NCBI GenBank assembly: GCA_017308135.1
Contig: JAFKFM010000013.1
Coordinates: 63,437 to 127,436, forward strand
Direction of reading: 5' to 3'
Length of the DNA: 64,000 nt
Origin: Alphaproteobacteria bacterium
Lineage (GTDB): Bacteria > Pseudomonadota > Alphaproteobacteria > CACIAM-22H2
Made by a program: the position numbers and the translations under genes. Positions 39,745-41,040 of this stretch are shown piece by piece (the stretch's first letter is position 1; each line of letters starts with the position of its first letter). The notes under the pieces were generated by a model, which ran no database searches, was not told the DNA's origin, and saw only the letters and a list, made by a program, of their open reading frames with translations.

Positions 39745-40688
39745 TCAAGGCATTCGCCCGCTATTTCGTATTTCTCCTGGTCGCCGCCGGACTGGTCTAT
39801 GGCGGCTACCGGCTGTTGAAGCCCGCCACGTCGACGCCGACGCCAACCGAAGCCTCGGAAAGCGAGCACTCCGACAGCGTGGCTCTCAGCGACGCCAAAG
39901 TTGAGGCGTCGGGCATTGAGCTTGCCAAGGCGTCGTCTGGCGTGTTGCGCAACAGCATGTTCTTGAACGGAATCGTGCAACCCAACCAGGAATTGCTGGT
40001 GCAGGTGACGCCGCGGTTTGCCGGGATCGTCCGCGATGTTCGCAAGCGCATCGGCGACAAGGTCCAGAAGGGCGACATTCTCGCGATCATCGAGAGCAAT
40101 CAGAGCTTGACGCCTTACGAATTGAAGGCGTCGCTGGCTGGAACTGTGATCGATCGCCAGATCACGCTGGGTGAATACGCCTCCGAGCAGAAGCCAGCGT
40201 TCGTCGTTGCGGACCTGTCGACGGTGTGGGTCGATTTTTCGGTGTATCGGCGTGACCTGAACCGGGTCAGCGTCGGCGACGAAGTGCTGATCGACCCCGC
40301 CGATGGCGGGACGCCAATCGGCGCCAAGATTTCCTATCTGTCGCCGGTCGGTAGCAGCGACACCCAGAGCGCCATCGCCCGGGCCGTGGTCCCGAACACC
40401 GGACAGCGGTTGCGTCCGGGCCTGTTCGTCACCGGGCGGTTGACGCTGTCGGCAAAGAAGGTCGGCGTCGCGGTGAAATCGTCGGCGCTTCAGACTGTCG
40501 AGAACCGCACGGTGGTGTTCGTGCGCAACGGCGACAAGTTCGAGGCGCGCGACGTCGAAGTCGGCCAACGCGATCCGCAACTCGTCGAGATCACCTTCGG
40601 CGTCCTTGAGGGCGACGTCTACGCGGCACAGAACAGTTTCATCGTGAAGGCGGAAATGACCAAGGGAGCGGGCGGCGATGAGCACTGA
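39741..40688 (+). CDS. czcB: CzcB-type periplasmic adaptor (short form, 315 aa)
   Basis: N-terminal TM helix. HlyD_D23-like beta-barrel segments (VTPRFAGIVRDVRKRIGDKVQKGDILAIIES; GLFVTGRL). Located between czcC and czcA. Confidence 0.8.
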   Translation: MIKAFARYFVFLLVAAGLVYGGYRLLKPATSTPTPTEASESEHSDSVALSDAKVEASGIELAKASSGVLRNSMFLNGIVQPNQELLVQVTPRFAGIVRDVRKRIGDKVQKGDILAIIESNQSLTPYELKASLAGTVIDRQITLGEYASEQKPAFVVADLSTVWVDFSVYRRDLNRVSVGDEVLIDPADGGTPIGAKISYLSPVGSSDTQSAIARAVVPNTGQRLRPGLFVTGRLTLSAKKVGVAVKSSALQTVENRTVVFVRNGDKFEARDVEVGQRDPQLVEITFGVLEGDVYAAQNSFIVKAEMTKGAGGDEH

Positions 40689-41040
40689 CAATGGAATGAT
40701 TTTGATCACCGCGTTGATCAGGCCTCATATGGAAGGTCACGTCGTCCGCGCGCTTCACGATCTGGCGGATTTTCCAGGCTTCACCTTCGATGAGGTTCGC
40801 GGCCAGGGCCGCGGGCGGGGACAAGGCGGGACCTACGTCGCGAGCGACGAGGACATCACCTATCACCAGTGCCTCGAATTGAGATTGGTGTGCCGGACGG
40901 ATCAGGCCGACGGGATTTGCCGCCGGATCGAAGCGGCGGCTTGGACAGGACGAAAGGGCGACGGCGTGGTCTACACGATGCCGGTCAACACCTTCGCCCG
41001 GATCAGGGAAGCGGGAGCAAAGGAGCACCGCAATGATTGA
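40678..41040 (+). CDS. PII (GlnB/GlnK)-superfamily protein embedded in the czc operon
   Basis: [71 protein letters not shown] aligns with the GlnB beta-alpha-beta x2 fold, including the TGxxGDGxI motif. It overlaps czcB by 11 nt and czcA by 8 nt. Confidence 0.8.

What the first reader, a model, noticed from the sequence alone, without database searches (positions are those of the whole stretch)
40678..41040. PII (GlnB-like) signal-transduction protein translationally coupled between czcB and czcA
The 120-aa product aligns with the PII double beta-alpha-beta fold, including the B-loop-like [10 protein letters not shown]. Its T-loop region is replaced by a Gly/Arg-rich [19 protein letters not shown]. 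The gene overlaps czcB by 11 nt and czcA by 8 nt, so it is made stoichiometrically with the pump. As far as I recall, a PII subgroup (called PII-NG) was noted bioinformatically to be linked to heavy-metal RND genes, but I know of no experimental function. A cytoplasmic PII-like trimer could gate CzcA according to ATP/ADP, 2-oxoglutarate or a metal ligand. That is inference.
Basis: partly seen in the sequence, partly recalled or inferred. Interest (0 to 1): 0.65.

Follow-up and report, generated by a model that had tools for sequence, protein, structure and literature searches.

The report
Metal-pump-linked PII protein gene (PII-NG)
A small signalling protein of the PII family is encoded inside a heavy-metal efflux pump operon; this pairing was described from genome comparisons in 2009 and is already annotated in public genomes, but I found no published experiment on what the protein does.

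Summary
The ORF at 40678..41040 (+) is real. It encodes 120 aa and overlaps the adaptor gene by 11 nt and the RND gene by 8 nt. It matches Pfam P-II, folds as PII in an AlphaFold2 model, and is under purifying selection (dN/dS about 0.11).

It belongs to the described metal-transport-linked PII group (PII-NG). RefSeq annotates a 92.5% identical gene in the same place on Afipia carboxidovorans plasmid pOC167: ihpA, ihpB, P-II, RND. So the gene is not new, but its function is untested.

- **Loop and ligand residues.** The T-loop is not replaced. It has the canonical length and a conserved base. The side chains used for MgATP/2-oxoglutarate sensing are lost (Q39, K58, K90). R9, T29, R38, F92 (as Y/F), R101, R103 and the loop glycines are kept. 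His and Cys are enriched.
- **Linkage.** In 70 of 80 genome loci from many phyla the gene touches an RND gene, in several gene orders.
- **Dispensability.** 35 of 69 closely related Ihp-type operons lack the gene. Their RND proteins show no distinguishing cytoplasmic signature.

The protein is therefore an accessory part, not an obligate subunit. The most likely role is a cytoplasmic trimer that modulates the RND trimer, as GlnK does AmtB and SbtB does SbtA. The ligand is not 2-oxoglutarate. This mechanism is inference.

The parts
38040..38414 (+). Conserved 124-aa protein with no family match. It has a hydrophobic N-terminal segment and a C-x-x-C motif (EHCPVCTP), and it is the first gene of the cluster.
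   Evidence: ORF. No Pfam or NCBIfam hit. Found upstream of the outer-membrane gene in both PII-plus and PII-minus operons.
38473..39744 (+). Outer-membrane factor (TolC/OEP family). It passes the NCBIfam IhpA equivalog cut-off.
   Evidence: PF02321, E = 4.9e-46. NF045679 IhpA scores 752.5 bits against a cut-off of 650.
39741..40688 (+). Periplasmic adaptor (membrane-fusion protein). It passes the NCBIfam IhpB equivalog cut-off.
   Evidence: PF16576. NF045680 IhpB scores 510.1 bits against a cut-off of 450.
40662..40668 (+). Shine-Dalgarno-like AAGGGAG, 9 nt upstream of the PII start codon and inside the end of the adaptor gene.
   Evidence: Sequence. An AAGGGAG or AAAGGA motif is conserved at this position in 32 orthologous loci.
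40678..41040 (+). PII-family protein of the metal-transport-linked group (PII-NG), 120 aa. This is the finding.
   Evidence: It is 92.5% identical to WP_012564859.1, annotated 'P-II family nitrogen regulator', on plasmid pOC167.
40798..40863 (+). T-loop (residues 41-62, [22 protein letters not shown]). Same length as in GlnB. The base is nearly invariant in the clade, the tip is acidic and there is no Tyr51.
   Evidence: Gap-free alignment to GlnB. Column counts. Low pLDDT over residues 44-61.
40945..40974 (+). B-loop (residues 90-99, [10 protein letters not shown]). G84, G87, D88 and G89 are kept; K90 is Val and F92 is Tyr.
   Evidence: Position 97 is V in 113 and I in 7 of 120 clusters, never K.
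41033..44242 (+). Heavy-metal RND inner-membrane transporter (CusA/CzcA family) with a [15 protein letters not shown] motif. I recall this motif as typical of divalent-cation pumps.
   Evidence: PF00873 and TIGR00914, 1598 bits. Closest solved structures are ZneA (4k0e) and CusA.
44239..44610 (+). 123-aa protein with a signal-peptide-like N-terminus. It overlaps the RND stop by 4 nt and has no family match.
   Evidence: No Pfam hit above the cut-off and no NCBIfam hit. Conserved after the RND gene in PII-plus and PII-minus operons.
45135..47321 (+). Heavy-metal P1B-type ATPase with an N-terminal HMA domain. It is a frequent but not universal neighbour of PII-NG genes.
   Evidence: PF00122, PF00702 and PF00403. 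Present within 6 kb in 29 of 49 loci with full flanks.

Best explanation
Identity (shown). The gene encodes a cytoplasmic PII-superfamily protein of the metal-transport-linked group (PII-NG). It sits inside an Ihp/Czc-type heavy-metal RND efflux operon on a Nitrobacteraceae-type metal-resistance island.

Mechanism (inferred). Like other PII proteins it forms a homotrimer. The trimer docks through its conserved T-loops on the cytoplasmic face of the homotrimeric RND protein and modulates pump activity after translation. GlnK does this to AmtB and SbtB does it to SbtA.

The signal is not 2-oxoglutarate. It is most likely an adenine nucleotide bound in a modified inter-subunit cleft, a divalent metal bound by the family-specific His/Cys residues, or both.

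The protein is an accessory regulator. It is not a structural subunit of the pump.
For: Identity:
- Pfam, PDB, model and fold-search results agree on a PII fold.
- Purifying selection: dN/dS 0.11.
- RefSeq annotates the same arrangement on pOC167.

Link to RND genes:
- Of 80 genome loci found with a PII-NG profile, 49 are adaptor-PII-RND, 20 are RND-PII and 1 is PII-RND at a contig edge.
- These loci come from Alpha-, Beta-, Gamma- and Deltaproteobacteria, Acidobacteria, Verrucomicrobia, Planctomycetes, Gemmatimonadetes, Bacteroidetes, Nitrospirae and Spirochaetes.
- One PII-RND pair stands without adaptor or outer-membrane genes (L005 8001-11533).
- The start and stop overlaps with both neighbours are conserved in 32 of 32 close orthologs.

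T-loop: the base R41-G-Q-G-R-G-R-G48 is 94-100% conserved in 120 clusters.

Ligand site:
- Kept: R9, T29, R38, G41, G84, G87, D88, G89, F92 (as Y or F), R101 and R103.
- Lost: Q39 to G, K58 to F/Y/C, K90 to V/I. Residue roles are taken from PMC8395244.
- Q39 is lost in 46 of 47 more distant RND-linked PII proteins.

His and Cys:
- The clade averages 5.3 His and 2.0 Cys per protein, against 1.9 and 0.5 in canonical PII.
- Thiobacillus and Metapseudomonas relatives have His-rich T-loops.

Precedent: every transporter that a 2023 review says is bound directly by a PII trimer (AmtB, Amt1, SbtA) is itself a trimer (PMC10710835). From my own knowledge, RND pumps are trimers too.
Against: - I found no experiment on any member of this group.
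- 35 of 69 closely related Ihp-type operons have no PII gene. A fully visible PII-minus operon has none within 9 kb.
- RND proteins with and without a PII neighbour are about 84% identical and have nearly identical cytoplasmic loops.
- Only 2 of 780 RND positions separate the two groups, and neither is cytoplasmic. There is therefore no sign of a co-adapted interface.
- As I recall, heavy-metal RND pumps are thought to take their substrate mainly from the periplasm. If so, the cytoplasmic face has no obvious pore to plug.
- Loss of K90 may weaken nucleotide binding.
- The conserved His positions differ between subclades, so no single metal site is conserved.
- One Bradyrhizobium liaoningense paralog is a pseudogene beside an intact RND gene.
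Confidence: 0.45

Rival explanations
1. The protein is a cytoplasmic metal sensor or metal-binding protein. It acts on something other than the pump, for example gene expression or metal buffering, or it hands cytoplasmic metal to an exporter. This is the role proposed for Geobacter GSU2134.
For: - His and Cys are about three- to four-fold enriched over canonical PII.
- H17, H21, H27, H63, C72 and C81 are conserved in the clade.
- Beta- and gammaproteobacterial relatives have His-rich, acidic T-loops.
- The Geobacter paper proposes metal sensing and reports induction by cobalt and control by Fur (PMC7726332).
- RND proteins show no PII-specific surface.
Against: - No single set of His/Cys positions is conserved across the RND-linked PII proteins.
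- C72 and C81 occupy positions that are Val or Ile in canonical PII, which I expect to be core positions. They may be buried.
- The tight adjacency to the RND gene in three different gene orders is not explained.
- For the fold relative CutA, a metal-tolerance role is questioned by a study title listed.
Confidence: 0.2
2. The protein regulates the neighbouring P1B-type metal ATPase rather than the RND pump. It would couple ATP-driven export from the cytoplasm to the energy state, as cyanobacterial PII does with ABC-transporter ATPase subunits.
For: - A P1B ATPase gene lies within 6 kb in 29 of 49 loci with full flanks. In 4 loci it lies within about 430 nt of the PII gene (L058, L063, L080, L088).
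- The window has one at 45135..47321.
- The fully visible PII-minus operon has no P1B ATPase nearby.
- PII binding to transporter ATPase subunits is known (PMC10710835).
Against: - 20 of 49 loci with full flanks have no P1B gene in reach.
- An RND gene lies in the flank of at least 75 of 80 loci.
- The gene order almost always places PII against the RND gene.
Confidence: 0.1
3. The protein is an ordinary GlnB/GlnK-type nitrogen regulator, as the database name 'P-II family nitrogen regulator' suggests, and merely happens to sit in this operon.
For: - It passes the Pfam P-II cut-off.
- RefSeq names it so.
Against: - It scores 35-45 bits against the NCBIfam GlnB and GlnK equivalogs, whose cut-offs are 181-202 bits.
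- Q39, K58, K90 and Tyr51 are all lost.
- Its context is a metal pump in nearly all loci, never amtB or glnA.
Confidence: 0.02
4. The gene is a decaying, functionless remnant carried along in the operon.
For: - About half of related operons lack it.
- One paralog in Bradyrhizobium liaoningense has a T-loop deletion and a frameshift.
Against: - dN/dS is 0.11.
- Length, start codon, overlaps and T-loop are conserved over 120 clusters.
- The gene is present in many phyla.
Confidence: 0.02

Closest known systems
PII-NG, the metal-transport-linked PII group (Sant'Anna et al. 2009, as cited in PMC4285133 and PMC7726332); example Geobacter sulfurreducens GSU2134
   Same: Both have the PF00543 domain and are linked to czc-type RND genes. 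Neither has a tested function.
   Different: GSU2134 is the first gene of its operon. Here the gene lies between the adaptor and RND genes and overlaps both. The window's subclade also has a 6-residue N-terminal extension, W89 and K90 replaced by Val.
WP_012564859.1, 'P-II family nitrogen regulator', Afipia carboxidovorans OM5 plasmid pOC167
   Same: 92.5% identical protein in the same order ihpA, ihpB, P-II, RND, with an ars operon upstream and a P-type ATPase downstream.
   Different: The island is only 86.6% identical in DNA over 76% of window 36000-48000 and is mosaic.
GlnK-AmtB
   Same: A PII gene is co-operonic with the gene of a homotrimeric membrane transporter. The T-loop has the same length, and R38, R101 and R103 are kept.
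   Different: The GlnK T-loop plugs a cytoplasmic pore exit, and its binding is controlled by ADP, by MgATP with 2-oxoglutarate and by Tyr51 uridylylation. Here Q39, K58, K90 and Y51 are absent, and I know of no cytoplasmic pore in RND pumps.
SbtB-SbtA (cyanobacterial bicarbonate transporter and its PII-like regulator)
   Same: A PII-like trimer encoded next to a trimeric transporter regulates it by direct binding, with adenine nucleotides and not 2-oxoglutarate as the signal (PMC10710835).
   Different: SbtB is a different PII-like family. No sequence relationship beyond the superfamily was tested here.
IhpABC divalent metal exporter of Bradyrhizobium japonicum (Zhang and O'Brian 2024; title only, paper not held)
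   Same: The window's outer-membrane and adaptor proteins pass NCBI's IhpA and IhpB equivalog cut-offs.
   Different: I could not establish whether the studied B. japonicum operon contains a PII gene. About half of close relatives lack it.
CutA1
   Same: It is a trimer with a PII-like fold and has been linked with divalent-metal tolerance.
   Different: CutA is stated to share no sequence homology with PII proteins (PMC12685090). The window protein is a true PF00543 member.
AcrZ, YajC and WatS1 (known small protein modulators of RND pumps)
   Same: They are accessory, non-essential proteins that modulate an RND transporter.
   Different: They are single-helix membrane proteins that bind the transmembrane domain, not soluble cytoplasmic trimers.

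Membership tests
PII superfamily (Pfam PF00543) | Sequence match to the P-II domain above the curated cut-off | tested here: met
   50.6 bits against a cut-off of 25, covering residues 7-111 and profile positions 1-100 of 102.
PII superfamily (Pfam PF00543) | Ferredoxin-like beta-alpha-beta-beta-alpha-beta fold with a long T-loop between strands 2 and 3 | tested here: met
   AlphaFold2 model: E7-14, H16-27, E36-43, loop 44-61, E62-73, H74-88, E96-103. The top 50 Foldseek PDB hits are all PII structures.
PII superfamily (Pfam PF00543) | Homotrimer | not testable with these tools
   Only a monomer could be modelled.
Canonical GlnB/GlnK | Side chains that hold MgATP and 2-oxoglutarate: Q39, K58, K90 (with R9, R101, R103) | tested here: not met
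   In the window protein Q39 is G46, K58 is C65 and K90 is V97. R9, R101 and R103 are kept. Residue roles are from PMC8395244.
Canonical GlnB/GlnK | T-loop Tyr51 modification site and PROSITE-type signatures (patterns recalled from memory: Y-[KR]-G-[AS]-[AE]-Y and [ST]-x3-G-[DY]-G-[KR]-[IV]-[FW]-[LIVM]) | tested here: not met
   Y51 is E58 and the sequence reads Y-V-A-S-D-E. The B-loop [11 protein letters not shown] fails at K/R, F/W and the last position (by eye).
Canonical GlnB/GlnK | NCBIfam equivalog score | tested here: not met
   44.8 bits against 181 and 35.4 bits against 202.
PII-NG (metal-transport-linked PII group) | Genetic linkage to heavy-metal RND (czc-like) efflux genes | tested here: met
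   The window gene lies between the adaptor and RND genes. The PII gene touches an RND gene in 70 of 80 related loci.
PII-NG (metal-transport-linked PII group) | Placement in the PII-NG clade of the published tree | not tested
   The 2009 paper and its sequences are not held. Shared features with other RND-linked PII proteins (G at the Q39 position, the GQGRGRG T-loop base, conserved H17, H27 and C72) are seen.
IhpABC-type exporter operon | IhpA and IhpB equivalog matches | tested here: met
   752.5 bits against 650 and 510.1 bits against 450. RefSeq uses the same names on pOC167.
IhpABC-type exporter operon | PII gene as a constant part of the operon | tested here: not met
   34 of 69 assessable relatives have it and 35 do not. 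A complete PII-minus operon is seen.

The most novel reading that the evidence does not exclude
PII-NG is a ligand-switched cytoplasmic regulator that binds the RND inner-membrane trimer three-on-three. It tunes a tripartite metal efflux pump to the cell's internal metal or energy state. This would be the first PII-RND complex. As far as my literature searches show, it would also be the first soluble cytoplasmic allosteric regulator of an RND pump. The PII-minus sister clade would serve as a natural control.
Probability: 0.3. Interest if true: 0.8.

Novelty: already known. Interest (0 to 1): 0.4.

Why it matters
RND efflux pumps are usually described as controlled at the level of transcription, and the only protein modulators listed in a 2023 review are small membrane peptides. 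If a PII-type sensor controls a metal RND pump directly, this would extend PII signalling beyond nitrogen and carbon to metal homeostasis. It would also show how a cell stops a pump that works on the periplasm from draining essential metals.

The group has been known from genome comparisons since 2009 and is still without an experiment in the literature I could search. This work adds three points:
- The 2-oxoglutarate-sensing residues are gone across the RND-linked proteins examined.
- There are two sequence subtypes that go with two gene orders.
- Closely related pumps exist with and without the gene, which gives a ready-made comparison.

Tried and rejected
1. **Expression evidence.** RNA-labelled public runs hold the sequence only as flat, 17-27 kb contigs that may contain DNA. 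They are uninformative.
2. **Irr/ICE box.** A search with an Irr-box consensus recalled from memory, to link the operon to iron control, found no match in the window. The promoter and terminator scans were at chance level.
3. **RND positions that distinguish PII-linked from PII-less pumps.** Only K172R (periplasmic) and I357V (a predicted membrane helix) separate the groups. The PII-less pumps form one clade, so the test is confounded by phylogeny and gave no cytoplasmic signal.
4. **Repressors replacing PII.** I tested whether RcnR/CsoR-type repressors replace PII in PII-less operons. Such repressors also occur in some PII-plus loci (L010, L051, L060, L081), so I dropped the idea.
5. **The IhpABC paper.** It is not held, so the gene content of the B. 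japonicum operon stays unknown. A word search for ihpA, ihpB and ihpC returned only unrelated papers.
6. **Odd-length homologs.** Longer or truncated hits such as P0127, P0132 and P0143 look like frameshifted assemblies. P0130 and P0144 are tandem canonical-type PII proteins. None is relevant.
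Full report
**1. The observation**

The ORF 40678..41040 (+) exists as described and encodes 120 aa.
- It overlaps the preceding adaptor gene (39741..40688) by 11 nt and the following RND gene (41033..44242) by 8 nt.
- An AAGGGAG motif lies 9 nt upstream of its ATG.
- The same start, the same overlaps (11 or 8 nt upstream, 8 or 4 nt downstream) and a similar purine-rich motif recur in all 32 close orthologous loci examined.
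- Median pairwise dN/dS over 33 orthologs is 0.11, and no other sense frame is open.

The gene is therefore a constrained coding gene. The long antisense ORFs over it are high-GC artefacts.

**2. What the protein is**

- It passes the Pfam P-II cut-off: 50.6 bits against 25.
- It is far below the NCBIfam GlnB and GlnK equivalog cut-offs: 35-45 bits against 181-202.
- Its best match among solved structures is Synechococcus elongatus GlnB, E = 3.6e-14. The alignment has a single one-residue gap, before strand 2, and no gap in the T-loop.
- An AlphaFold2 model built on 34 relatives has pLDDT 83.7, the PII strand and helix order, and a low-confidence loop at residues 44-61.
- All top Foldseek hits are PII structures, none more than about 40% identical. 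I saw no solved structure of this subgroup.

**3. Ligand-site anatomy**

I mapped the residues that coordinate ATP, Mg and 2-oxoglutarate in GlnK structures (PMC8395244) onto the protein.
- Kept: R9 (R15 here), T29 (T36), R38 (R45), G41 (G48), G87 (G94), F92 (Y99), R101 (R108) and R103 (R110).
- Lost: Q39 is G46, K58 is C65 and K90 is V97.

Across 120 homolog clusters of the close clade:
- Position 46 is G in 117.
- Position 65 is F, Y, H, L or S and never K. The window's Cys is rare.
- Position 97 is V or I in all.
- The Tyr51 position is T, F or E.

Canonical MgATP/2-oxoglutarate sensing and T-loop uridylylation are therefore very unlikely. Some form of adenine-nucleotide binding remains possible.

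Other features of the clade:
- The T-loop base R-G-Q-G-R-G-R-G is almost invariant, and the tip is acidic (SDED).
- H17, H21, H27, H63, C72, C81 and W89 are conserved.
- The mean content is 5.3 His and 2.0 Cys per protein, against 1.9 and 0.5 in canonical PII.

**4. Surroundings**

- The outer-membrane and adaptor proteins pass NCBI's equivalog cut-offs for IhpA and IhpB.
- The RND protein is CusA/CzcA family, is closest to ZneA and CusA among solved structures, and carries a [15 protein letters not shown] motif. I recall this motif as typical of divalent-cation pumps.
- The operon reads: 124-aa protein, outer-membrane factor, adaptor, PII, RND, 123-aa protein, 155-aa protein, P1B ATPase.
- The wider window is a metal-resistance island. 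It holds an ars operon, a Cus-like RND pair with a multicopper oxidase, MgtC and a cation-exchanger-like gene.
- Afipia carboxidovorans OM5 plasmid pOC167 carries the same arrangement, annotated ihpA, ihpB, 'P-II family nitrogen regulator', CusA/CzcA RND, P-type ATPase. Its PII protein is 92.5% identical.

**5. Linkage across genomes**

A profile scan of one genome per species gave 202 relatives, of which 80 loci were kept. I laid the window's pump proteins on these loci.

| Arrangement | Loci |
|---|---|
| adaptor-PII-RND | 49 |
| RND-PII | 20 |
| PII-RND at a contig edge | 1 |
| RND in the flank but not adjacent (PII first, or a P1B ATPase between) | 5 |
| No RND scored in the flank | 5 |

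Of the last five, three are contigs with short flanks. One of these, L039, in fact shows the RND start just after the PII gene.

The loci come from many phyla. Two sequence subtypes go with gene order:
- Proteins between the adaptor and RND genes have K90 replaced by a hydrophobic residue and F36 replaced by Q or H. A beta- and gammaproteobacterial subgroup has His-rich T-loops, for example KGHPRGHGKDHRYTADEWDPNTHQHW.
- Proteins after the RND gene mostly keep K90, F36 and often K58.
- Q39 is absent in 46 of 47.

A P1B ATPase is within 6 kb in 29 of 49 loci with full flanks.

**6. The reverse test**

I searched metagenome contigs with the adaptor protein instead and obtained 80 close relatives, 61-100% identical.
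- Of 69 assessable loci, 34 have the PII gene after the adaptor gene.
- In the other 35 the RND gene follows directly, and no PII gene is in view.
- A completely visible PII-minus operon has none within 9 kb.
- The PII-minus RND proteins form one clade beside the PII-plus clades, with one extra loss inside a PII-plus clade.
- RND proteins of the two kinds are about 84% identical and have almost identical cytoplasmic loops.
- Only two positions in the first 780 residues separate them, and neither is cytoplasmic.
- In Bradyrhizobium liaoningense one paralogous copy has a T-loop deletion and a frameshift in two independent assemblies, beside an intact RND gene.

The PII protein is therefore an accessory component of the pump.

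**7. Literature**

- The metal-linked PII group is known. [quoted passage not shown]
- The Geobacter cobalt study names it PII-NG after Sant'Anna 2009. It reports that GSU2134, the first gene of a czc operon, is induced by cobalt and is in the Fur regulon, and it proposes metal sensing (PMC7726332).
- A 2023 review lists AmtB, Amt1, NrtABCD, UrtABCDE and SbtA as PII-regulated transporters. It lists only AcrZ, YajC and WatS1 as RND modulators, and it notes that PII use seems restricted to transporters that work as trimers (PMC10710835).
- My searches of the held library found no experiment on a PII-NG protein.
- The IhpABC paper is not held.

**8. Mechanism**

*Shown:* family membership, fold, selection, linkage, loss of the 2-oxoglutarate-binding residues and dispensability.

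*Inferred:* a homotrimer that binds the homotrimeric RND protein through its conserved T-loops and tunes pump activity to a cytoplasmic signal, either a nucleotide or a metal.
- I rate this at about 0.45.
- It rests on the gene-neighbour rule set by glnK-amtB and sbtB-sbtA, and on the conserved T-loop.
- The RND proteins show no matching signature, and I know of no cytoplasmic pore in RND pumps.

*Rivals:*
- A metal sensor or binder acting elsewhere: 0.2.
- A regulator of the P1B ATPase: 0.1.
- An ordinary nitrogen regulator: 0.02.
- A decaying remnant: 0.02.
- The remainder is left for something not considered here.

**9. Verdict**

The gene is already annotated and its group already described, so novelty is low. 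The function is still an open question, which this analysis sharpens but does not answer.

Noticed in passing
window 38040-38414 (+): A 124-aa protein with no family match, a hydrophobic N-terminal segment and a conserved C-x-x-C motif (EHCPVCTP; EHCYTCVP in L170). It precedes the outer-membrane gene in both PII-plus and PII-minus Ihp-type operons. It could be a membrane-anchored metal-binding or regulatory protein.
   Followed up: partly
window 44239-44610 (+): A 123-aa protein with a signal-peptide-like start and no family match. It overlaps the RND stop codon by 4 nt and is conserved after the RND gene in PII-plus and PII-minus operons.
   Followed up: partly
window 38000-47300 compared with L001-L004 and L016-L017: The island is mosaic. 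The outer-membrane, adaptor, PII and RND genes are 94-98% identical (protein level) to L001-type contigs. The 123-aa protein (98-99%), the 155-aa protein (86-88%) and the P1B ATPase (93%, L017 only) are closest to L016/L017, whose PII protein is only 75% identical. This suggests a recombination breakpoint near the 3' end of the RND gene.
   Followed up: partly
L005 4189-4533 (-) and L006 311-655 (-): In Bradyrhizobium liaoningense a paralogous Ihp-type operon carries a PII copy with a 6-residue T-loop deletion and a frameshift, seen in two independent assemblies, next to an intact 1069-aa RND gene. The same genome has a PII-RND pair without adaptor or outer-membrane genes (L005 8001-11533) and a third Ihp-type RND gene at the locus edge whose PII status is out of view.
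   Followed up: partly
L170 3573-3851 (+) and 11509-11772 (-); L171: The PII-minus Ihp-type operon is flanked by two CsoR/RcnR-type repressor genes, a cation-diffusion-facilitator gene and an Nramp gene, and it has no P1B ATPase. Similar repressors also occur in a few PII-plus loci, so there is no clean either-or pattern.
   Followed up: partly
window 7383-14281 (-): A second heavy-metal RND pair, a 1065-aa RND protein and a 544-aa CusB-like adaptor, lies beside a multicopper oxidase and has no PII gene. It gives an internal example of a metal RND system without PII.
   Followed up: partly
window 34629-36972 (-): An arsenic-resistance operon (two ArsC-type reductases, an ACR3 transporter and an ArsR-type regulator), in the same place relative to the ihp genes as on plasmid pOC167.
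   Followed up: partly
window 39729-40709 (-) and 40639-41160 (-): Long antisense ORFs of 326 and 173 aa overlap the adaptor and PII genes. The antisense frame over the PII gene is open in only 19 of 33 orthologs. They are typical high-GC artefacts, not genes.
   Followed up: yes
window 37800-45200, runs X2, X3, X17, X18: Runs labelled RNA-Seq contain this region as 17-27 kb (X2, X3) or shorter contigs at uniform depth. This looks like DNA carry-over or whole-genome coverage, so these runs cannot show whether the operon is transcribed.
   Followed up: yes
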